A stretch of 24,000 nt of DNA from Ewingella americana (GCF_006438725.1 NZ_RCZD01000016.1:4719-28718), one strand, 5' to 3'; positions 5,809-16,718 are shown, numbered from the stretch's first letter. Notes: generated by a model not told the origin, from the sequence alone. Numbers and translations are program-made.

Positions 5809-6254
5809 ATATTAAATAAAAATCAATATGATTGTAAAATCATACATTTTTAATGTTGTAATGATATTAAAATAACTTACATACCATTAATCCATCTCAA
5901 CATTTAAAATCTGGATGGTACTTTTGCTCTGCCCACCCCCTTCCCACAGCATGGTCTGACGGGAGTTTTACGCTTGGCCTAATTTTAAATAGTACTTTAA
6001 ACACTAGGGCTATCAAAGAGACACATAAGTAGAGAAAGAGCGACTCTAGTGCAATAGCAATTGCATCTAGCTCAGTTAACCCATGCAAGAAATTTCTCTT
6101 TAAGTAGCCACCAATCACTTATACATCAAAAACAAATCATATTCATATTAAAATGATATCATTTTATGAAAATTATCAGAAAAAAAGCTGGTTTAAAAGG
6201 ATATTTTACTGCTAGTATAAAAACATCATAAGCACAGCATTTTAATATTAAAAT
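5809..6254. repeat. dispersed ATATTAAA(A)T motif copies upstream of parA (candidate centromere/operator)
   Basis: Copies start at 5809 (ATATTAAAT), 5864, 6145 and 6245 (ATATTAAAAT). The copy at 6145 runs into a 16-bp perfect palindrome AAAATGATATCATTTT (6150-6165). The copy at 6245 lies between a weak promoter-like TTAAAA-N17-TATAAA (6193-6221) and the parA RBS. Confidence 0.4.
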
Positions 6255-8155: not shown

Positions 8156-9037
8156 ATGGAAAACTCTAATGATATCAATCCACCAGAAAGCCCATTTGCG
8201 ATAATCAAGAAAGATTCAGGCACAGCTTATGAACTGATTCCGAATAGCAGCAAAACAGTCCAGCCTGTAGCACTGCTTAGACTAAGCGTGTTTACCCCTG
8301 TTTCACCAAAGGAAAAGGGGAAGCGGGAATTCCTCATAGATGCCTCAGAGGAACTTTCCAGCTTAGAAGTTGCAAGGCAGGAAGGGTATACAAATATCAA
8401 GATTCAGGGCGCAAAGCTTGGTATGTCCACAGATTTTAAAACGTGGATAGGGATCATCTCAGCCTTTTCAAAGTACGGTTATTCTAGTGAAAAGATAAGC
8501 TTACCGTTCTCAGAGTTTGCACGGATGTGTGGTTTAAAGCCCACAGACATCAATGGACGTGCCAGAACGCGTCTCAGCGACTCTCTGTTCAACTTATCAA
8601 GCGTGACGCTGGCATTTCGCAGCAAAGATGGCAAACGCTCCCTGGTGACGCATCTGGTACAACGTGCGGTACTAGATATGGACGCTGATTTGGTTGAAAT
8701 TGTTGGGGACCCTAGTCTGTGGGAACTCTACAGATATGATCACAAGGTTTTGCTTGGTCTAAAAGCCCTTTCAGAGTTATCCCGTAAAGAAGCAGCTCAG
8801 TCCCTATATGTGTACTTTGAAAGTATGCCCCCATCTACATTGTTTGTTTCAATGAAACGCCTCCGGGAGCGTCTGGCGATGGAATCGCAAGTAAAAGACC
8901 AAAACGCGACCATCCGCAGGGCAATGACTGATTTGAAGAAAATCGGCTACATAGACTACACAGAGACGAAAAAGGGGAGGGAGATCATGTTCATCATCCA
9001 TACCCGCTCTCCAAAGCTTGGGCTCGCTTCTTCATAA
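8156..9037 (+). CDS. repA: Rep_3-family iteron-binding replication initiator (RepE/RepA, IncFIB-like)
   Basis: 293 aa flanked by its iterons. Collinear with F RepE as recalled (TVQPVALLRLSVFTP.., DFKTWIGIISAF.., THLVQ.., LWELYRYDHKVLL.., IGYIDYTE). Confidence 0.9.
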   Translation: MENSNDINPPESPFAIIKKDSGTAYELIPNSSKTVQPVALLRLSVFTPVSPKEKGKREFLIDASEELSSLEVARQEGYTNIKIQGAKLGMSTDFKTWIGIISAFSKYGYSSEKISLPFSEFARMCGLKPTDINGRARTRLSDSLFNLSSVTLAFRSKDGKRSLVTHLVQRAVLDMDADLVEIVGDPSLWELYRYDHKVLLGLKALSELSRKEAAQSLYVYFESMPPSTLFVSMKRLRERLAMESQVKDQNATIRRAMTDLKKIGYIDYTETKKGREIMFIIHTRSPKLGLASS

Positions 9038-9689: not shown

Positions 9690-10028
9690 TCATTTCAGAA
9701 TGTTATAACGGTAAAGCAACTTCCCAAAATCTTGTTTCATACTAACAAAAAGCAGTATCTCAATATTCGTGCCGTCAAAATCGTAGAGCACTCGATACTC
9801 ACCTTCTACATCAAGCCTTTCACGCAACATCAAACCGCGATCTGAAAGGTATGCGTTGAAGCGATACCTCTGAGGATCTTCAGTAATGTTAGCAACAGAT
9901 TCTGTCAGTAGGTTATCGACGAAACTCGCAGCCTGATGCTGCCCGATCGTTCCACTTTTATATGATTCAATATCTTCCAGGCACTGCTGCGCCATTGGCG
10001 CGACTACAACTGAAAACTGATTTGACAC
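9690..10028 (-). CDS. RelE/ParE-superfamily type II toxin
   Basis: 112 aa. The C-terminal EYRVLYDFDGTNIEILLFVSMKQD pattern is typical of ParE/RelE. It is the second gene of a two-gene cassette, 14 nt after the antitoxin. Confidence 0.7.
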   Translation of the reverse strand: MSNQFSVVVAPMAQQCLEDIESYKSGTIGQHQAASFVDNLLTESVANITEDPQRYRFNAYLSDRGLMLRERLDVEGEYRVLYDFDGTNIEILLFVSMKQDFGKLLYRYNILK

Positions 10029-10042
10029 TCAATACCTCACTA

Positions 10043-10324
10043 TTATTTTCTTGCGGCACGTAGCCTCCCTAAGACATCTTCGGGGGTCATGCCTTTGCCA
10101 TCTGCTATTTCCTTTTTAGCCATCATTGCCAGCTTAAAAAGGGCATTTATATTTCTTTCCTGCTCAATTTCTCTCAGTTCTACCTGACGTTCTGCAGCGG
10201 TCTGAATGAAAAGCTCTGCGACACCATTTTTTGTTACATACATACCCCCCTCAAAAATTTGTGCATTTCCAAGACTGTCTCTGGCAAGTTTCTGTGACAT
10301 GGTCTGAGTCATATTTTTTTCCAC
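10043..10324 (-). CDS. putative cognate antitoxin (Phd/YefM- or ParD-like)
   Basis: About 85-93 aa and upstream of the toxin. GMYVTKNGVAELFIQ resembles the Phd/YefM beta-strand core. The start is uncertain: GTG at 10324, ATG at 10312 or ATG at 10300. Confidence 0.55.
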   Translation of the reverse strand: MEKNMTQTMSQKLARDSLGNAQIFEGGMYVTKNGVAELFIQTAAERQVELREIEQERNINALFKLAMMAKKEIADGKGMTPEDVLGRLRAARK

Positions 10325-10539: not shown

Positions 10540-10809
10540 TCACGCCGTATAGGTAGGTGGGGAGAATAGGCAATAGAGAGTGGAATAAGCGCTCCGTAAT
10601 ATGAACGGGTGGATTGCGCGCCTAACGGAGCTGATGGATGATGTCTGGAATGCTAACAGAAATAAAGTATTGGCAAGACCATAAAGGACATATCTGAAAG
10701 TTATTAATCCTGCATCATTTGGTTCATGGCGGATAAGCGACTCCGCCACCGGCTGAAGAGCAGGGCGTGGTGACCGGGTGGTAATAAAAAACTTTCCGGC
10801 CAAGGGCAT
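10540..10809 (-). CDS. doubtful 89-aa ORF overlapping the KAP NTPase stop (TAATG)
   Basis: The only support is the 1-nt stop/start overlap. Composition differs from the upstream operon and no family is recognised. Confidence 0.2.
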   Translation of the reverse strand: MPLAGKFFITTRSPRPALQPVAESLIRHEPNDAGLITFRYVLYGLANTLFLLAFQTSSISSVRRAIHPFILRSAYSTLYCLFSPPTYTA

Positions 10810-13049
10810 TAAAATCGAGCGTGCGCCTGGGAAGTCCTGATTTCCGTTATGACTTCTGGATATTGCCCCCCAGCCTCTATGCGAGCAAGCCGTTGTTCAA
10901 TTACCTCCTCGTCGCCGAGAAATTCACTCAGGCCGGAGAGGTCAAGACTCAGATAACGACCTGTGGCACTGCTTATACCACGACCTCTTAAGCGCAAAAG
11001 CAGTTGCACCAGCCCCTCATCGGTTTGAATGACCTCTTCAGCCCACGTCCTGACGCGTTCGACGTTATCGATATCTCTCCAGGCATAAAGATACGACAGT
11101 AGGTCGTTCGTTTCTAAAAGAAGGGTCAAAATTTCATCCTGGTTCAGCCGTTCAGCAAGCCTTGGCAATACTGCTCCCAGTTCTTCGTTTAACAACACCC
11201 GATCATCCATCGACGCTGGCCGGTCGCCGACCAGCCCGTTTTGCCACATAAGATGCCGCACATACATTGCAATCCATGACCAGGCGGTCCCCTCGACACA
11301 AATATCCTGAAGGAAGGTGATTGTGGCTGCCCTGTTTACCTCACACATTCTTTGTATTAACCGGTCTACAACGCCGTCTATATTGAGGTCATACGCCGCA
11401 AACCAGACGTTGAGTTGCTGAAAGCGCTGTATAACCGTATCGCCGTAGTTAAAGAAAAATCTGACCAAACCTTCACAGGCTGCCGCACTTTGCGCGGCCA
11501 CCATCGCCGGAGAAAGCTGGCTAAGAATGTGTTCGAACCAGGTGCGGGAGGACACATTGTTGCTGTTAATTCTTCCCAGTAGCAATTCCGACATAGCCCC
11601 CTGGCGTGTAGGATCCTCTGCCTGACGGAACAGGTCATCAAAAAACGCCGGAGGTAGCACATTCTGAGGGGAGGAAAAGGAGAAGTAGTAACGCCAGTAG
11701 GCACCGCTGCCAAGGCGCTTACCCGCCGTCATCTCGGCGCGCTCCTGATCCCCTATGGGAGAAAAAAGCGTCATGTTTTCGACGTTAGAGCCTAAAATTC
11801 CGGGCACCCAGCCATTTAGATAAAAAGGCTTGCGCGCCGTTGAAGGTGGGAAATGGCTCAGGTGTTCTATCAGCTTCGTTTTCAACTCCGTCTTCTCTTC
11901 ATCACCGACGCTACCGTCGCGTGATTCCACAACAGCACGCTCCGTCAGATACTGCTCTATCCAGTCATACAGGCCAGCGTTACTGATACGAATAAGCTGC
12001 AGCAGACACAAATCGGGCAGGTAGACGTAATCGCGCACTCCGCCGTAGCGAAATCTCAGTATATTCAGAACCAGTTTCACCTCTCGCGGCGTGGACAACG
12101 CGCCGCCGTAGACATCCGTCACGCGCGTAAGGTCGCCCAGCAAGTCCTGTTCGGGACCGTGACCATTAACGTCCTGATAGAGGTCAGTCACGCCGCTGAT
12201 GAATTCCCGCCGCAGGCTAAAGGCCTCCGGACGAGGCAGGCTGATTGAAATCTGCACGATTTTTTGCAGGTAGGCGGCGCCGTCCGTCACCCCCAGACCG
12301 GTCTGAATGGCATGGGCCAGCACCGCTTTGTCGTAAGACAGGACGTAGCGAAAGCGGGGAAAATCTGCCACGGATTTCACCAGGCGAACGATCTCCACCG
12401 CCTGAGCGGGTTCCAGCCGATCCAGGTCGTCCATTACGACGATAAAACTCAGGTCCAGGTCAGTAATTTTCTCGCCAATCTCGGCGCGCAACTCGGCGGT
12501 TGTCTTTCTGTTGGTCAGAAACTCCGCGTCTGAGTAAGCCTTCAGTGCCCCGCTGGCGTTGGGCATGCCGGGTACCAGCGCGGCCATCTCGGCCACGGGT
12601 CCCAGGTGGCGGGCGGTCGACTGGCTGTAGCGTAATACTTTGCACGCCGTATCTGTCAGCGTTTTTTTTCGCTTCAGGCGTTTGAGCGCTGGGGCCGATA
12701 ACGCGCGCTTCTCTTCTTCCGCAATAATGGCCGCGACCGGCAACAGCAGGGATTCTACGGGGCTCATACTCCCACCATCGAGCCAGGGTGACACGGACAG
12801 CACAAAGGTTCGCTCAGGTAGCCCGGCCTCGAGTTCGAAACGCAATAAGTTGAGTAGACTGGTTTTACCTGAGCCCCAGGCGCCCTCAATGCCGATCACG
12901 GCGCTGCCGTCCCGGCCTAACCCCTCGATGGCATGTGCCAGCTGCTTCGCGACGTGGGTAAACCCATACCGGTCTTCGCCGGGACTCTGCACGGCGGCAT
13001 CGAGGCCTGCGCTGAAACGTTCGCCGTCTCCTGTCTGCTCATCTGTCAT
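10809..13049 (-). CDS. KAP-family P-loop NTPase (746 aa, no obvious TM insertion)
   Basis: N-terminal DRYGFTHVAKQLAHAI then IGIEGAWGSGKTS (Walker A, nt 12861-12884) and FIVVMDDLDRLEP (Walker B). Long helical C-terminal half. Confidence 0.85.
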   Translation of the reverse strand: MTDEQTGDGERFSAGLDAAVQSPGEDRYGFTHVAKQLAHAIEGLGRDGSAVIGIEGAWGSGKTSLLNLLRFELEAGLPERTFVLSVSPWLDGGSMSPVESLLLPVAAIIAEEEKRALSAPALKRLKRKKTLTDTACKVLRYSQSTARHLGPVAEMAALVPGMPNASGALKAYSDAEFLTNRKTTAELRAEIGEKITDLDLSFIVVMDDLDRLEPAQAVEIVRLVKSVADFPRFRYVLSYDKAVLAHAIQTGLGVTDGAAYLQKIVQISISLPRPEAFSLRREFISGVTDLYQDVNGHGPEQDLLGDLTRVTDVYGGALSTPREVKLVLNILRFRYGGVRDYVYLPDLCLLQLIRISNAGLYDWIEQYLTERAVVESRDGSVGDEEKTELKTKLIEHLSHFPPSTARKPFYLNGWVPGILGSNVENMTLFSPIGDQERAEMTAGKRLGSGAYWRYYFSFSSPQNVLPPAFFDDLFRQAEDPTRQGAMSELLLGRINSNNVSSRTWFEHILSQLSPAMVAAQSAAACEGLVRFFFNYGDTVIQRFQQLNVWFAAYDLNIDGVVDRLIQRMCEVNRAATITFLQDICVEGTAWSWIAMYVRHLMWQNGLVGDRPASMDDRVLLNEELGAVLPRLAERLNQDEILTLLLETNDLLSYLYAWRDIDNVERVRTWAEEVIQTDEGLVQLLLRLRGRGISSATGRYLSLDLSGLSEFLGDEEVIEQRLARIEAGGQYPEVITEIRTSQAHARF

Positions 13050-13050
13050 G

Positions 13051-14145
13051 TTATAAATCTCCGTACAGCGAGCGTAAAGCCTCCACGGCGCTGGCCAGGG
13101 CGCCCGTATCCACCCGCTCCGTCAGCTCCCGGACCAGTTCGCCGAACGCCTCGGCTGGCACAAACACCCGCAGCGCATCAAAACCCAGGATCGCGTCCTG
13201 ATGCGCAGTCCCCGGCAGGGCCAGGCTGATATGGGCACCTTCGCTGTAGCGGCGCACCGCCTCCGGCGTGGTGCGATAGACGTTCAGCAGGCGGTAAAGT
13301 TCCGCGAACTCCCTCCAGCCGAACGGCATAACAAAGTTGCTGCCGGTCAGAACCAGATACAGGCGCGGCACCTCATCACCAACGGCGGCGGGCAAGTCAC
13401 CGCGCTGGCCGTCGACCCGGATGTCGAACCGCAGGTCACCGGCGGAGAAGGTGTCATTCATTTCCCGCACCGACGGGCGCACCTCCCGGATAAAGGTTTC
13501 GCGCTGCCCGAAGGTCCACTGCCGGGTGCGCATCACCAGCGGAAAGATCTGCTGCAGGCGCGCCGGCGTGAAGACGCGGGCCAGCACGTCGTCAGGATAA
13601 TCATTCAGCGAAAAGCAGCCAGACGCCAGCGGCCGCATCAGATATTCCGCATAGCCGGGATCGACGGCGCGGCTCATTTCACGCATAAAGCGCGCGGCCT
13701 CTTCCTGCCAGTTCTCGGTCGCAAACTCAAAGGTGCGCTTAATGTAGTGGCTGTCCACCGGCAGCCCGTGCTCTGCCTGCCAGACCAGCAGCTCAAAGCT
13801 GATGTTCAGCAGCGTTTCCAATACTGGCCACCTGACAAATTCCTTTGCGCTGGCGTCGCGGTAGGCCTGATGGGCAAGATCCGTCATAAAGCGCAGCTCG
13901 GCGCGGCGCAGCGCCTGGCGGCCAAAGGTTTCTCCGAGGACAACTTTGCGGTACAGCTGCTGCACCGCCTCGTCCGGTCGGGTAACCAGCTGTAGCCAGT
14001 CGTCATCCGGCGCGCTGGTTTGCAGGGAGACGTCAAGAAAACGCTCGGCCAGGGCGTTGACCGAGGTCTTTTCCGTGACAGCACGGTTTTTCAGCGATTC
14101 GATGAGTTTTTTAGGAAAGCGGAGTGTTAACTGGCTGAGCATCAT
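13051..14145 (-). CDS. RHH-domain protein with a large uncharacterised C-terminal region (364 aa)
   Basis: The N-terminus LTLRFPKKLIESLKNRAVTEKTSVNALAERFL fits a CopG/Arc-type ribbon-helix-helix. The stop is 1 nt from the KAP ATG. No motif recognised in the remaining ~300 aa. Confidence 0.7.
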   Translation of the reverse strand: MMLSQLTLRFPKKLIESLKNRAVTEKTSVNALAERFLDVSLQTSAPDDDWLQLVTRPDEAVQQLYRKVVLGETFGRQALRRAELRFMTDLAHQAYRDASAKEFVRWPVLETLLNISFELLVWQAEHGLPVDSHYIKRTFEFATENWQEEAARFMREMSRAVDPGYAEYLMRPLASGCFSLNDYPDDVLARVFTPARLQQIFPLVMRTRQWTFGQRETFIREVRPSVREMNDTFSAGDLRFDIRVDGQRGDLPAAVGDEVPRLYLVLTGSNFVMPFGWREFAELYRLLNVYRTTPEAVRRYSEGAHISLALPGTAHQDAILGFDALRVFVPAEAFGELVRELTERVDTGALASAVEALRSLYGDL

Positions 14146-14186
14146 TTTTTTCCTGTCATTGACGTAGCTATTTTAGCCTCACGATC

Positions 14187-14216
14187 ATTAAGCGCCTTCA
14201 TTGCAAATAGTGTCAA
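14187..14216 (-). promoter_or_regulatory. candidate sigma70 promoter of the RHH-KAP operon
   Basis: Minus strand has TTGACA (14211-14216), an 18-bp spacer and CTTAAT (14187-14192), about 40 nt upstream of the ATG. Confidence 0.4.
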
Positions 14217-14288
14217 CTATTGAAAATGAAATCATTCCATAAAATGACATCATGTCATTTAAATGAAGGTTCATCACATTCCTTTCAT
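14197..14288. promoter_or_regulatory. operator-like array of ATGA(A/C)/TTCAT palindromes
   Basis: AATGA-AA-TCATT (14225-14236), AAATGACAT-C-ATGTCATTT (14242-14260) and ATGAA-GG-TTCAT (14263-14274). Half-sites at 14197-14202 and 14284-14288. Confidence 0.45.
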
Positions 14289-14710
14289 TTTTTCTTGTGA
14301 GATCCGCTTTCTGGCATTACCGGATCTCGCCTTTCAGCCCGGCTGCCGTTTCCCCGAAAAACACATCATGGAGTATCTCTGGTGATACTAACTCCCGTAC
14401 ATGTTGTGTTTTTTGCTTGCACTGTGACGGGGATATCGACCCCGAAAAGGGCGGCTTTGCTTATTTCCTCGCCGTGGTACACTTCCGGAAAGTGTGAATA
14501 TGCCAGTAAATCGGATCACGCAGGAATGGCGAAACGGTAATTGTGCGACGTGATTATATGTCTGCTTATTATCAGATTGGTGACATTCCCGACAGTAAAA
14601 AATAAGCCTGAGAATATTCAGGCAGGGTGACTGACTCAGGATTGTGCGCAGTTAGATCTCCCGCAGATAGTAATTACTCTTAGTGACTATTTTTATGGGG
14701 ATCACTTTTG

Positions 14711-15040: not shown

Positions 15041-15117
15041 TATTGTCAGTTGCATACCATCAATAACTGTTGGTGGGATTTCCCGTTTATAGAGTCACAC
15101 AGAGAGGTACTTGTGTT

Positions 15118-15942
15118 ATGGCAAGCATGAAAGACTCGATGTTTGATATTGAAGCTGAACGCTTTGATAAATGGCTTGAGGAAAATTATCCGGATGTTGT
15201 ACCTGACTCTGAAGAGTGGGAGCAGGCTACGAATCTATATTACTGGGAGCAGGATGCGCTTGCAGATCAGGCTCAGTGGGATCATGAACACGGTCTGTTT
15301 GTGGCTTCCCTGAGCAATGTTCATCAACGTTACCTGCACGCAAACCAGGAACTGAAGAAGTTGTGGGCCTTACTTGATAATCCACAGCCGGAACTTGTAT
15401 ACCGGATGTCCTTCGTCCATGCCGTGACGGTCATGGAGGCGTACCTGATGTACTGTGCCAGGGCGCTGCTGGAGTACGACCGGCCGCTCAGACGCTTTCA
15501 GGATGAGTATTACCTGAAGTCGAATACCAAACGTATTAAAAATACAGACAAGCAGGCTGCCCGCGAGATGTCGCTTTCCCTTTTCCGGCCTGCTGCGAGA
15601 AATTACGTCTCCGGCATGACGTTTCACAACGTCAAAAAAATTGAGCGCTATTTTGGCACTGTGCTGCATGTGCCGCCCGTCTGGCCTCTCACGCCTCTTG
15701 GCATCATCACGCAGTGGCGCAACGACCTGGTCCACCGGAATGGTGTGGATGAGCAGGATGTGCCGCTCGCTTTATCACCGCTGCAGCTACAAAACGCCCT
15801 GCAGAAGGTTTATGAACTGATATCTGCGGCTAACATTTCAATGCGGCAGGAAGTGGATTTATTCGGTGACGGCCGTACGGAAGAAAACAGAGAAATTATT
15901 GCTTCAGCGCTTAACATATCTTCAACCAGAGACGCATCCTGA
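15118..15942 (+). CDS. hypothetical protein with a C-terminal HEPN-like R-x4-H motif (274 aa)
   Basis: ATG at 15118 preferred (GAGAGG 10 nt upstream) over the TTG at 15070. All-helical-looking sequence with WRNDLVHRNG (nt 15718-15735). The stop overlaps the recombinase ATG (TGATG). Confidence 0.55.
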   Translation: MASMKDSMFDIEAERFDKWLEENYPDVVPDSEEWEQATNLYYWEQDALADQAQWDHEHGLFVASLSNVHQRYLHANQELKKLWALLDNPQPELVYRMSFVHAVTVMEAYLMYCARALLEYDRPLRRFQDEYYLKSNTKRIKNTDKQAAREMSLSLFRPAARNYVSGMTFHNVKKIERYFGTVLHVPPVWPLTPLGIITQWRNDLVHRNGVDEQDVPLALSPLQLQNALQKVYELISAANISMRQEVDLFGDGRTEENREIIASALNISSTRDAS

Positions 15943-16718
15943 TGACTGGACTCATTACCCTGGGGCAGCAGTCTTTCCCTGTCGCTCAGTTACCCGTGGC
16001 CATCGACTATCCCGCCGCGCTGGGACTTCGCAAGATGGCCCTAGTCCAGGACGACCTGCCGAAATACCTGCTGGCCCCGGAGGTGAGCGCGCTGCTCCAC
16101 TACGTGCCGGACCTGCACCGCAAGATGCTGCTGGCGACGCTCTGGAATACGGGTGCGCGCATTAACGAAGCGCTGGCCCTGACCCGGGGGGATTTTTCCC
16201 TGGCACCGCCTTATCCGTTCGTGCAGTTGGCGACGCTCAAGCAACGCGCAGAGAAAGCGGCGAGAACGGCCGGGCGGGCACCCGCCGGCAGCCAGGCACT
16301 TCGCCTGATCCCCCTCTCTGATCACCTGTACGTCAGCCAGCTACAGATGATGGTGGCCACGCTGAAAATTCCGCTGGAGCGACGCAATAAGCGAACCGGT
16401 AAGACCGAAAAGGCGCGCATCTGGGAGATCACCGACCGCACGGTGCGCAGCTGGATTAATGAGGCGGTAGACGCGGCCGCCGCCGACGGCGTGACGTTCT
16501 CGGTGCCGGTGACACCGCACACCTTCCGGCACAGCTACGCCATGCACATGCTGTACGCCGGTATTCCGCTCAAGGTGCTGCAGAGCCTGATGGGTCACAA
16601 GTCGGTCAGCTCGACAGAGGTGTATACGAAGGTATTTGCGCTGGACGTGGCGGCCCGCCATCGGGTGCAGTTCTCCATGCCCGGAGCCGACGCTGTAGCT
16701 ATGCTGAAGCATCGGTGA
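15942..16718 (+). CDS. tyrosine site-specific recombinase (plasmid resolvase/integrase-type)
   Basis: 258 aa. TGARINEAL (Arg), HTFRHSYAMHML (His-x-x-Arg), LMGHKSVSSTEVYT (His and the nucleophile Tyr). Confidence 0.9.
   Translation: MTGLITLGQQSFPVAQLPVAIDYPAALGLRKMALVQDDLPKYLLAPEVSALLHYVPDLHRKMLLATLWNTGARINEALALTRGDFSLAPPYPFVQLATLKQRAEKAARTAGRAPAGSQALRLIPLSDHLYVSQLQMMVATLKIPLERRNKRTGKTEKARIWEITDRTVRSWINEAVDAAAADGVTFSVPVTPHTFRHSYAMHMLYAGIPLKVLQSLMGHKSVSSTEVYTKVFALDVAARHRVQFSMPGADAVAMLKHR

What the first reader, a model, noticed from the sequence alone, without database searches (positions are those of the whole stretch)
10809..14145. Tightly coupled RHH-domain protein and soluble KAP-family NTPase: candidate uncharacterised defence/abortive-infection module
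Seen:
- A 364-aa ORF opens with a ribbon-helix-helix-like segment, followed by ~300 aa in which I recognise no catalytic motif.
- Its TAA (13051-13053) is 1 nt from the ATG (13047-13049) of a 746-aa ORF.
- That ORF has KAP NTPase hallmarks: IGIEGAWGSGKTS Walker A, FIVVMDDLDRLEP Walker B and a long helical C-terminal half.
- I see no hydrophobic insertion in the P-loop domain, unlike classical membrane-embedded KAP proteins.
- The pair is visibly GC-rich relative to both flanks. It sits between a ParE-type TA cassette and a HEPN-like gene, a recombinase and an IS remnant, which is a defence-island-like neighbourhood.

Established: the KAP NTPase family was defined by Aravind et al. 2004. As I recall it (to be verified), KAP proteins recur in defence islands. 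One KAP protein (Tmn, Gao et al. 2020) confers phage resistance.

Inference: the RHH protein is a DNA-binding partner, regulator or sensor, and the NTPase is the switch or effector of a two-gene immunity or plasmid-competition system. I cannot match the pair to any named system.
Basis: partly seen in the sequence, partly recalled or inferred. Interest (0 to 1): 0.78.

Follow-up and report, generated by a model that had tools for sequence, protein, structure and literature searches.

The report
Diverged F-plasmid pifC–pifA phage-exclusion operon
The two tightly coupled genes are a diverged copy of the long-known pifC–pifA operon of the F plasmid, a repressor plus the soluble KAP NTPase that aborts phage T7 infection, so the gene pair is real but is a named system rather than a new one.

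Summary
On the minus strand, a 364-aa ORF (13051-14145) ends 1 nt before a 746-aa ORF (10809-13049). The second ORF has intact Walker A and B motifs and no transmembrane segment.

The interpretation "uncharacterised, matches no named system" is wrong:
- The 746-aa protein matches PADLOC's PifA model end to end (E=1.9e-286) and is 46% identical over 96% of its length to the "phage T7 exclusion protein" of IncF plasmids.
- The 364-aa protein is 48% identical over its full length to PifC, the pif operon repressor and fertility-inhibition factor.
- F-like plasmids have the same gene order, the same 1-nt junction and the same position beside the replication gene.
- KAP stands for "Kidins220/ARMS and PifA", and PifA is the known KAP member without transmembrane helices.
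- The neighbourhood is plasmid maintenance backbone (Rep3 initiator, ParE toxin-antitoxin pair, ResD-type resolvase), not a defence island.

New here, and modest:
- A conserved palindrome (14242-14260) is the likely operator.
- A Thr/Asn switch in PifC's Arc-like β-strand tracks two operator classes across 15 loci.
- PifC's C-terminus weakly resembles a PUR/Whirly fold.

Verdict: new member of a known kind; low interest.

The parts
13051..14145 (-). pifC homologue (364 aa from the first ATG; F PifC aligns from the second ATG at 14142). Predicted autorepressor of the operon and fertility-inhibition factor.
   Evidence: 48% identity over 100% of its length to annotated 'pifC: transcriptional repressor PifC'. 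92% identical to a Rahnella victoriana plasmid 'transcriptional regulator'. The family has 68 clusters; every one that carries a source's organism name is from Enterobacterales.
14011..14145 (-). Arc/Mnt-type ribbon-helix-helix DNA-binding head of PifC (residues 1-45). The β-strand is LSQLTLRF.
   Evidence: PHROG Arc-like repressor E=4.5e-5. BLASTP against P22 Arc E=4e-4, with LSQLTLRF aligned to MPQFNLRW. This is the most conserved part of the family. The T/N residue covaries with operator class.
13063..13461 (-). PifC C-terminal domain (residues 229-361): two β-β-β-β-α repeats with a weak PUR/Whirly-like fold.
   Evidence: AF2 model with pLDDT 86.5 and pTM 0.81. Foldseek PDB best hits are PUR-alpha repeats I-II (E=0.017, TMt 0.39-0.42) and Whirly proteins. 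This is a lead only.
13047..13053 (-). pifC stop, 1 nt, pifA start (TAAcATG): a translational-coupling junction.
   Evidence: The same 1-nt gap occurs in the F-like plasmid. The gap is 0-2 nt in 11 genome loci where a full-length pifC ORF was called directly upstream.
10809..13049 (-). pifA homologue (746 aa): soluble KAP-family P-loop NTPase, predicted abortive-infection effector or switch.
   Evidence: PADLOC PifA E=1.9e-286, residues 13-743 against model positions 4-717 of 720. 46% identity over residues 15-729 to the 'phage T7 exclusion protein'. More than 525 homologous clusters.
12045..12959 (-). KAP P-loop NTPase domain (PifA residues 31-335).
   Evidence: Pfam PF07693 E=4.8e-39.
12858..12884 (-). 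Walker A GAWGSGKTS (G56-S64).
   Evidence: G56, W58, G59, G61, K62, T63 and S64 are invariant in 29 homologues.
12408..12446 (-). Walker B FIVVMDDLDRLEP (F202-P214).
   Evidence: F202, I203, D207, D208, L209, D210, R211, L212, E213 and P214 are invariant.
14242..14260 (.). Candidate PifC operator (pifO-like): perfect 9-1-9 palindrome AAATGACAT-G-ATGTCATTT, centred 109 nt upstream of the second ATG (14142), where MLSQL begins.
   Evidence: It is the only match in the window (0.03 expected by chance). The TGACAT-N-ATGTCA core is conserved at -106 to -109 in 6 other loci, including loci whose PifC is only 45-48% identical.
14151..14160 (-). Half-site-like AATGACAGGA next to the ribosome-binding site and start codon of pifC.
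   Evidence: Conserved in the Rahnella plasmid. The count of such half-sites in the window is not above chance on its own.
14280..14289 (-). Half-site-like AATGAAAGGA upstream of the palindrome.
   Evidence: It reads AATGACAGGA in the Rahnella plasmid.
14231..14258 (-). Promoter-like site overlapping the palindrome: ATGACA, 16 nt, TG-AATGAT.
   Evidence: This is a consensus match only. An alternative -35 TTGACA at 14211-14216 is conserved in the Rahnella plasmid.

Best explanation
This is a diverged orthologue of the pif (phage inhibition by F) operon, carried on a Rahnella/Yersiniaceae-type plasmid next to its replication and maintenance genes.

PifC:
- Shown by homology: the 364-aa protein is PifC.
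- Inferred: its N-terminal Arc-like ribbon-helix-helix head binds the palindrome AAATGACAT-N-ATGTCATTT in its own promoter region and represses pifC-pifA.
- Known for F PifC, inferred here: the protein also inhibits conjugation of rival plasmids by acting on their type IV coupling protein.

PifA:
- Shown by homology: the 746-aa protein is PifA, the soluble, transmembrane-less founding bacterial member of the KAP P-loop NTPases.
- It is translated by coupling to pifC through the TAAcATG junction.
- Inferred from F PifA: it stays inactive until a T7-like phage expresses trigger proteins (gp1.2 and the capsid protein gp10 in T7). NTPase-dependent action at the inner membrane then causes depolarisation and nucleotide leakage, and the infection aborts.
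- Inferred weakly from fold similarity to RADAR RdrA: it may act as an oligomeric ring.

Which phages trigger this particular 46%-identical variant is unknown.
For: Identity of the two proteins:
- PADLOC PifA E=1.9e-286, full length; Pfam KAP_NTPase E=4.8e-39.
- tblastn and BLASTP give 46% identity over 716 residues to the annotated 'phage T7 exclusion protein', and 48% over 364 residues to 'transcriptional repressor PifC'.

Operon and context:
- The F-like plasmid has the same order (pifC then pifA), the same 1-nt junction and the adjacent repE.
- Among the Enterobacterales PifA loci examined, a full-length pifC ORF sits directly upstream with a 0-2 nt gap in 11 genome loci and in both plasmid loci. 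One more locus has a full-length PifC match by tblastn, and five carry pifC remnants.
- There are no transmembrane helices in this protein or in the F-like PifA. This agrees with the literature statement that PifA lacks them (PMC13001434).

Operator:
- The palindrome is unique in the window.
- It is conserved in position and sequence in loci whose PifC is only 45-48% identical.
- The β-strand residue T or N (aligned to Arc position 11) covaries perfectly with operator class: 9 T with class 1 and 6 N with class 2. At least two switches are independent of overall relatedness. L006 (T) is 78-80% identical to L001 and L015 (N). L020 (T) is 62-64% identical to L017 and L022 (N).

Literature:
- PifA acts as an Abi system against T7, depends on gp1.2 and gp10, and causes membrane depolarisation (PMC8594841; PMC11990801; PMC10286901).
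- PifC is the pif regulatory gene and inhibits fertility through the type IV coupling protein (PMC5696584).

Structure: the best structural neighbours of the PifA model are RADAR RdrA rings (E=1.3e-6).
Against: - Identity to the characterised F proteins is only 46-48%, so trigger specificity, and even anti-phage activity, cannot simply be transferred.
- The BASEL phage-collection work found F PifA to have a very narrow phage range. Its authors suggest immunity may not be its primary function.
- PifA homologues often occur without PifC. That holds for about 8 Enterobacterales loci and for every non-Enterobacterales locus among the 80 loci kept. PifC is therefore a lineage-specific regulator or add-on rather than an obligate partner.
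- The promoter is not resolved. The -35 TTGACA lies about 38 nt from the palindrome centre, and the alternative promoter that overlaps the palindrome is only a 9-of-12 consensus match.
- RHH support from curated libraries is sub-threshold: Pfam DUF6364 is below its cutoff, and the profile hit to Mnt has E=0.27.
- No experiment was possible.
Confidence: 0.85

Rival explanations
1. The operon's main job is plasmid-versus-plasmid competition and plasmid housekeeping, not phage defence. On this view PifC is the important product, acting as a fertility inhibitor of rival IncP/IncW-type conjugation systems and possibly as a replication-region binding protein. PifA's phage exclusion would be a side effect.
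For: - PifC of F and R64 inhibits IncP and IncW transfer through the coupling protein (PMC5696584).
- The operon sits in the maintenance backbone beside the Rep initiator, a ParE toxin-antitoxin pair and the ResD-type resolvase. The resolvase is syntenic with pifC in 11 loci.
- The BASEL authors note the very narrow phage range of PifA and suggest another primary function.
- 1345 plasmid records carry a PifC-like sequence against 1110 with a PifA-like one.
Against: - pifA is kept intact, with invariant Walker motifs, and is translationally coupled to pifC across 41-93% identical lineages.
- In many Klebsiella plasmids it is pifC, not pifA, that is truncated (hits covering residues 64-364 with no annotation).
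- PifA-like proteins persist alone in many genomes.
- The closest plasmid relative is typed non-mobilizable, where competition at conjugation matters less.
Confidence: 0.2
2. This is a previously uncharacterised two-gene defence system, distinct from any named system.
For: The closest database relatives are annotated only as 'P-loop NTPase fold protein' and 'transcriptional regulator'. NCBIfam has no equivalog for either protein.
Against: - There is an end-to-end match to PADLOC PifA and to annotated PifA and PifC.
- Operon structure and junction are identical to F-like plasmids.
- Sequence identity runs continuously from 93% down to 40%, linking this protein to the F type.
Confidence: 0.02
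3. The pair behaves as an addiction or toxin-antidote-like module. PifA would be intrinsically toxic when derepressed, PifC would be the labile repressor, and plasmid loss would lead to PifA expression and post-segregational killing.
For: - The BASEL authors could not obtain a functional ectopic pifA construct.
- Autoregulation with tight coupling is built like a toxin-antitoxin operon.
- The operon is located among plasmid stability genes.
Against: - PifA occurs without PifC in many genomes, so it is not intrinsically lethal.
- PifC is 364 aa with a large conserved C-terminal domain, unlike a short antitoxin.
- Nothing in the papers read supports post-segregational killing by pif.
Confidence: 0.05

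Closest known systems
F plasmid pif operon (PifC repressor plus PifA T7 exclusion protein); listed as the single-protein system 'PifA' in PADLOC and as 'Pif' in a survey of defence systems
   Same: - Gene order, 1-nt stop/start junction and protein lengths (364/746 aa here, 362/741 aa in F).
- End-to-end homology, a KAP domain with the same Walker motifs, and no transmembrane helices.
- An Arc-like N-terminus in PifC.
- A GC-rich pifC (62% here, 63% in F-like plasmids).
- Plasmid location next to the replication initiator.

   Different: - Only 46-48% amino-acid identity.
- A different operator: TGACAT-N-ATGTCA at about -109, rather than TGCTA-N3-TAGCA at about -39. This is matched by Thr instead of Asn in the β-strand.
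- A Rep3/RepB-type initiator rather than the RepE/IncF backbone, in a Rahnella/Pectobacteriaceae-type host range.
- Phage specificity is untested.
pifC-pifA-like pair on Rahnella victoriana plasmid NZ_CP089921.1 and in Rahnella rivi / Rahnella sp. AA contigs
   Same: 85.8% nucleotide identity over the whole operon and its promoter. The proteins are 81-93% identical, with the same palindrome and the same RepB-family initiator and recombinase neighbours.
   Different: Annotated only generically. In R. victoriana, the ParE toxin-antitoxin pair of the window is replaced by Rpn, DUF2913 and a hypothetical gene between rep and pifA.
RADAR RdrA (ring-forming defence ATPase)
   Same: It is the best structural neighbour of the PifA model (Foldseek E=1.3e-6, prob 1.00). 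Both have a P-loop domain followed by a long helical region.
   Different: TM-score is only about 0.3 and sequence identity 10-12%. There is no RdrB adenosine deaminase partner, and no RADAR hit in PADLOC. This is a fold-level relative, not a family member.
P22 Arc / Mnt ribbon-helix-helix repressors
   Same: The PifC N-terminus aligns to Arc's β-strand and helix A (E=4e-4). The PHROG Arc-like repressor family matches at E=4.5e-5. The palindromic operator lies in its own promoter region.
   Different: PifC carries about 300 extra residues: a helical domain plus a PUR/Whirly-like double repeat. It also has a second activity, fertility inhibition, that Arc and Mnt lack.
Tmn and classical membrane-embedded KAP NTPases
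   Same: P-loop NTPases implicated in membrane-associated phage defence.
   Different: No transmembrane helices here and no Tmn hit in PADLOC. A 2026 preprint places Tmn in the separate YobI family.

Membership tests
PifA (F-plasmid T7 exclusion protein; PADLOC PDLC02361) | End-to-end sequence homology to F PifA and to the PifA profile | tested here: met
   PADLOC PifA E=1.9e-286, residues 13-743 against model positions 4-717 of 720. BLASTP gives 46% identity over residues 15-729 to the annotated phage T7 exclusion protein.
PifA (F-plasmid T7 exclusion protein; PADLOC PDLC02361) | KAP P-loop NTPase domain with intact Walker A and Walker B | tested here: met
   Pfam PF07693 E=4.8e-39. GAWGSGKTS and FIVVMDDLDRLEP fall on invariant columns.
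PifA (F-plasmid T7 exclusion protein; PADLOC PDLC02361) | No transmembrane helices, which sets PifA apart from typical KAP proteins | tested here: met
   The highest 19-residue hydropathy mean is 1.38, and 1.27 for the F-like PifA. The literature states that PifA lacks transmembrane helices.
PifA (F-plasmid T7 exclusion protein; PADLOC PDLC02361) | Encoded immediately downstream of pifC in one operon on a plasmid | tested here: met
   TAAcATG junction. The same arrangement is found in the F-like plasmid, and in 11 genome loci with a full-length pifC ORF 0-2 nt upstream.
PifA (F-plasmid T7 exclusion protein; PADLOC PDLC02361) | Aborts T7-type infection in response to gp1.2 and gp10, with membrane permeability lesions | not testable with these tools
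   Known for F PifA only. This needs plaque and membrane-integrity assays.
PifC (pif operon repressor and fertility-inhibition factor) | End-to-end homology to F PifC | tested here: met
   48% identity over residues 2-364 against 1-362, E=1e-117. tblastn hits are annotated 'pifC: transcriptional repressor PifC'.
PifC (pif operon repressor and fertility-inhibition factor) | N-terminal DNA-binding head (Arc/Mnt-type ribbon-helix-helix) | tested here: met
   PHROG Arc-like E=4.5e-5 and BLASTP against Arc E=4e-4. The T/N residue covaries with operator class. Caveats: Pfam DUF6364 is below its cutoff, the Mnt profile hit has E=0.27, and the monomer AF2 model has low confidence in this region.
PifC (pif operon repressor and fertility-inhibition factor) | Palindromic operator (pifO) in its own promoter region, giving autoregulation | tested here: inconclusive
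   A unique, conserved palindrome is present at 14242-14260. Binding and repression were not tested, and the promoter position is ambiguous.
PifC (pif operon repressor and fertility-inhibition factor) | Inhibits conjugation of IncP/IncW plasmids through their type IV coupling protein | not testable with these tools
   Shown for F and R64 PifC (PMC5696584).
Classical membrane-embedded KAP NTPases (Aravind et al. 2004) | Transmembrane helices associated with or inserted in the P-loop domain | tested here: not met
   No hydrophobic segment reaches a transmembrane-like score. PifA is the known exception within KAP.
Qat system (QatA) and PDC-S20 | Full-length match above the family cutoff, with the partner genes QatB, QatC and QatD | tested here: not met
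   NCBIfam QatA scores 30.4 bits against a cutoff of 600. The PADLOC QatA and PDC-S20 hits are partial (E=1e-14 to 1e-17) against 1.9e-286 for PifA. There are no Qat partner genes nearby.
RADAR (RdrA/RdrB) | RdrA ATPase paired with an RdrB adenosine deaminase | tested here: not met
   Only fold-level similarity. There is no deaminase gene and no PADLOC RADAR hit.

The most novel reading that the evidence does not exclude
PifC may be more than a repressor. Its conserved 300-residue body is a helical domain plus a double β-β-β-β-α PUR/Whirly-like module. It could bind single-stranded nucleic acid or the coupling-protein/DNA substrate complex, and so act as a sensor of incoming DNA from a phage or a rival plasmid. 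Such a sensor would both block foreign transfer and release repression of PifA. In this Rahnella-type clade (new operator class, 46% identical PifA), the system would then respond to triggers other than T7 gp1.2 and gp10.
Probability: 0.1. Interest if true: 0.55.

Novelty: new member of a known kind. Interest (0 to 1): 0.17.

Why it matters
It matters little as a discovery. The pif operon has been known since the 1970s-80s, and PifA gives the KAP family part of its name.

The work is still useful in three ways:
1. It corrects generic database labels. The closest relatives are annotated only as 'P-loop NTPase fold protein' and 'transcriptional regulator'.
2. It shows that the PifC-PifA pairing was found only in Enterobacterales among the loci examined, while PifA-like NTPases extend into Alphaproteobacteria and other Gammaproteobacteria with other partners.
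3. It gives a simple, testable rule for PifC operator recognition. Thr at the Arc-N11-equivalent position goes with TGACAT-N-ATGTCA, and Asn goes with TGCTA-N3-TAGCA.

The mechanism of PifA itself is still unsolved. A diverged natural variant could help map which parts of the protein determine trigger specificity.

Tried and rejected
- Megablast of the operon against plasmids found only one record, Rahnella victoriana at 85.8%. Protein-level searches were needed to reach the F type.
- NCBIfam gave no informative family for either protein.
- Sequence searches of PDB with the single proteins found nothing. Profile searches gave only non-significant hits: Mnt at E=0.27 and RdrA at E=0.05.
- The old primary papers could not be read. 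These include Aravind 2004 (PMC416466), Miller, Lanka & Malamy 1985 (PMC219239) and Schmitt, Kemp & Molineux 1991 (PMC208987). No held paper mentions pifO in this sense. The comparison with the published F operator sequence is therefore not made. The F-type palindrome reported here is read from an F-like plasmid (L001).
- Half-site counting (AATGACAKGA with 1 mismatch) is not above chance in the window (5 found, 3.1 expected). Only the full palindrome is significant.
- The 89-aa ORF at 10540-10809, whose ATG overlaps the pifA stop codon, has no Pfam hit. Homology with the Rahnella loci ends at about 10706-10773. It was rejected as a third operon gene.
- The 'defence island' reading was rejected. 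No PADLOC hits were found in six neighbouring ORFs, and the HEPN hit is sub-threshold.

Full report
**Observation.**
- On the minus strand, a 364-aa ORF (13051..14145) is followed by a 746-aa ORF (10809..13049).
- The junction reads TTA TAA c ATG, so the stop and the start are separated by one base.
- The large protein carries IGIEGAWGSGKTS (Walker A, G56-S64) and FIVVMDDLDRLEP (Walker B, F202-P214). It matches Pfam KAP_NTPase at E=4.8e-39 over residues 31-335.
- No 19-residue window reaches a transmembrane-like hydropathy; the maximum is 1.38.
- The pair is GC-rich relative to its flanks. pifC is 61.8% and pifA 55.4%, falling from 59.8% to 51.4% along the gene, against 42-47% on either side.

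**Identity.** The pair is not unnamed.
- Against PADLOC, the 746-aa protein matches the PifA model at E=1.9e-286 over essentially its whole length (13-743 against 4-717 of 720). The next best models, PDC-S20 and QatA, are partial and weaker by some 270 orders of magnitude.
- tblastn against 72,556 plasmids finds 1110 records with a PifA-like sequence and 1345 with a relative of the 364-aa protein. The F/IncF-type hits are annotated 'phage T7 exclusion protein' and 'pifC: transcriptional repressor PifC'.
- Direct BLASTP gives 46% identity over 716 residues for PifA and 48% over the full 364 residues for PifC.
- In an IncFIB/FIC plasmid the arrangement is repE | pifC (362 aa) | 1 nt | pifA (741 aa). 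That is the same order and the same one-base junction.
- The closest DNA relative is a Rahnella victoriana plasmid, 85.8% identical across the operon and its promoter. There the genes are annotated only as 'transcriptional regulator' and 'P-loop NTPase fold protein'.
- The window as a whole resembles Rahnella, Brenneria and Pectobacteriaceae plasmids with a RepB/Rep3-type initiator.

**What the literature says.**
- KAP stands for 'Kidins220/ARMS and PifA' (PMC13552941; PMC13001434). PifA is described as the KAP member that lacks transmembrane helices.
- PifA of F is one of the classical E. coli abortive-infection systems. It acts on T7 and a few relatives. Sensitivity depends on the phage gp1.2 allele and on the capsid protein gp10. 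The outcome is membrane depolarisation and nucleotide leakage.
- Its range is very narrow. The BASEL authors raise the possibility that immunity is not its primary role, and they could not obtain a functional ectopic pifA construct.
- PifC is the 'pif operon regulatory gene'. This wording comes from the title of Miller, Lanka & Malamy 1985, as cited in PMC5696584. PifC is also a fertility-inhibition factor that blocks IncP and IncW conjugation by acting on the type IV coupling protein.
- On Tmn, a 2023 preprint calls it a KAP NTPase, while a 2026 preprint assigns it to the distinct YobI family.

**Co-occurrence.**
- The PifC family is small: 68 clusters at 90% identity. Every cluster that carries a source's organism name is from Enterobacterales. 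Identity to this protein runs continuously from 90% down to 37%.
- The PifA family is larger, with more than 525 clusters. A genome scan confirmed 263 loci and kept 80 of them. These include full-length homologues at 26-43% identity in Rhodobacterales, Hyphomicrobiales and marine Gammaproteobacteria.
- In 11 Enterobacterales genome loci, a full-length pifC ORF lies directly upstream with a 0-2 nt gap. One more locus (L022) has a full-length PifC match by tblastn. Both plasmid loci (L001, L002) have the same arrangement.
- Five loci carry pifC remnants and about eight carry none. None of the non-Enterobacterales loci has pifC.
- PifC-linked PifAs span 41-92% identity to this one, so the window's pair lies inside the PifC-linked radiation.
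- PifC is therefore a recurrent but not obligate partner. That fits a regulator, or an added function, rather than an essential subunit.

**Operator and DNA-binding head (new here).**
- Upstream of pifC lies a perfect 9-1-9 palindrome, AAATGACAT-G-ATGTCATTT (14242-14260). It is the only such site in the window, with 0.03 expected by chance.
- Its core TGACAT-N-ATGTCA recurs, centred 106-109 nt upstream of the pifC start codon, in six other loci. It is centred at -85 in a further locus and has one mismatch in another. Some of these loci have a PifC only 45-48% identical to this one.
- F-type loci carry a different palindrome, TGCTA-N3-TAGCA, centred at about -39.
- The PifC N-terminus aligns to the β-strand and first helix of P22 Arc (E=4e-4 for the pair). 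LSQLTLRF aligns with MPQFNLRW, and the PHROG Arc-like repressor family matches at E=4.5e-5.
- The residue aligned to Arc Asn11 is, as I recall, a base-contacting residue in the Arc-operator structure. It is Thr in all nine class-1 loci and Asn in all six class-2 loci. One further Asn locus (L010) has no palindrome that I could find.
- The association does not simply follow relatedness. L006 (Thr, class 1) is 78-80% identical to L001 and L015 (Asn, class 2). L020 (Thr, class 1) is 62-64% identical to L017 and L022 (Asn, class 2) but only about 37% identical to the other class-1 proteins.
- This supports both the RHH reading and the operator assignment.
- The exact promoter is unresolved. A 9-of-12 consensus site overlaps the palindrome (14258-14231). 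A conserved TTGACA lies at 14211-14216.

**Structures.**
- The PifC model is confident (pLDDT 86.5, pTM 0.81) except for the N-terminal head, which is expected to fold only as a dimer.
- The PifA model (pLDDT 78.8, pTM 0.51) is closest to the ring-forming RADAR ATPase RdrA (E=1.3e-6, TM about 0.3). Orc/Cdc6, Apaf-1/NLR and BrxC ATPases follow. This fits a P-loop switch that oligomerises. It does not make the protein a member of any of those systems.

**Neighbourhood.** The genes around the pair are plasmid backbone.
- There is a Rep3-type initiator (8156-9037), a ParE-type toxin with an upstream small ORF (9690-10324), and a tyrosine recombinase (15942-16718).
- The recombinase is 85-94% identical to a 'site-specific integrase' present on more than 5000 enterobacterial plasmids. 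One record annotates it 'resD: resolvase'.
- This recombinase lies about 1.7 kb upstream of pifC in 11 of the related loci.
- None of six neighbouring ORFs hits PADLOC. The 'HEPN-like' gene has only a sub-threshold Pfam hit.
- The setting therefore mirrors F, where pif sits beside the replication and stability genes. It is not a defence island.

**Mechanism.**
- Shown: homology to pifC and pifA; intact NTPase motifs; the coupling junction; a conserved palindrome; the covarying recognition residue.
- Inferred from the F system: PifC dimers repress the operon at the palindrome. PifA is made at a low level, is activated by T7-type phage proteins and, in an NTPase-dependent way, compromises the inner membrane so that infection aborts. 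PifC additionally interferes with rival plasmids' coupling proteins.
- Unknown: which phages trigger this 46%-identical variant, and how PifA damages the membrane.

**Verdict.**
- This is a new, diverged member of a long-known system. Interest is low. The operator-specificity rule and the PifC C-terminal fold lead are small additions.

Noticed in passing
window 14242-14260; loci L001, L002, L004, L006, L010-L013, L015, L017, L020-L023, L052 upstream of pifC: There are two operator classes upstream of pifC: TGACAT-N-ATGTCA at about -107 and TGCTA-N3-TAGCA at about -39. They covary perfectly with Thr or Asn at the Arc-N11-equivalent β-strand residue of PifC (9 and 6 loci). At least two switches are independent of overall relatedness.
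   Followed up: yes
window 13063-13461 (PifC residues 229-361): The C-terminal domain of PifC is predicted as two β-β-β-β-α repeats. Its best PDB matches are weak ones to PUR-alpha and Whirly ssDNA/RNA-binding folds (E=0.017, TMt about 0.4). No Pfam domain covers it.
   Followed up: partly
L071:1071-5978, L073:995-6022, L076:1067-5974 (upstream of PifA-like genes starting at about 5971-6019): Distant PifA-like KAP NTPases (26-30% identity, in environmental Pseudomonadota and Vicinamibacterales MAGs) overlap by 4-8 nt a 1635-1675-aa upstream ORF. In L071, the one scanned, that ORF has Eco57I, N6_Mtase and MmeI_Mtase domains. This looks like a type IIG or BREX-PglX-like methyltransferase paired with a KAP NTPase.
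   Followed up: partly
L057:4802-5953; L029:2324-3409, L032:4874-5908, L056:4835-5956: Other alphaproteobacterial PifA-like genes have different upstream partners. One is a Fic/DOC protein with a winged HTH that overlaps the start by 4 nt. The other is a DUF4365 protein (scanned in L029) lying 20-70 nt upstream in three loci.
   Followed up: partly
window 15942-16718 (+): This tyrosine recombinase is the ResD-type plasmid multimer resolvase. It is 85-94% identical at the protein level on more than 5000 enterobacterial plasmids. It is syntenic about 1.7 kb upstream of pifC in 11 related loci, and is more conserved than pifCA itself.
   Followed up: yes
window 13051-14145 versus L001:3878-4966: pifC keeps about 62-63% GC in both this lineage and the F-like lineage, although the proteins are only 48% identical and the host plasmids are about 48% GC. 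pifA is 55% GC here, declining from 5' to 3', and 48% in the F-like plasmid. The high GC looks like a conserved property of pifC rather than a mark of recent transfer. It is unexplained.
   Followed up: partly
window 15070-15942 (+) and L022:3221-4036: The 290-aa 'HEPN-like' ORF has only a sub-threshold HEPN_RiboL-PSP hit (17.3 bits against a cutoff of 28.4). A 42%-identical homologue sits in the same position, between resD and pifC, in one other locus. Its function is unknown.
   Followed up: partly
window 14357-14413: A 14-nt inverted repeat (AAAAACACATCATG / CATGTTGTGTTTTT, 93% complementary, 29-nt spacer) lies in the 560-nt pifC-upstream intergenic region. In F, as I recall, the region next to pifC holds ori-1 and the ResD site rfsF. 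Whether this repeat is a resolution or origin-related site was not examined.
   Followed up: no
window 10540-10809 (-): An 89-aa ORF has an ATG that overlaps the pifA stop codon (TGATG). It has no family hit, and homology with the Rahnella loci ends at about 10706-10773. It is probably not a gene.
   Followed up: partly
plasmid hits H63-H79: Many Klebsiella pneumoniae plasmids match PifC only over residues 64-364, and most have nothing annotated there. They appear to be pifC pseudogenes lacking the DNA-binding head, while pifA-like genes on Klebsiella plasmids remain full length.
   Followed up: no
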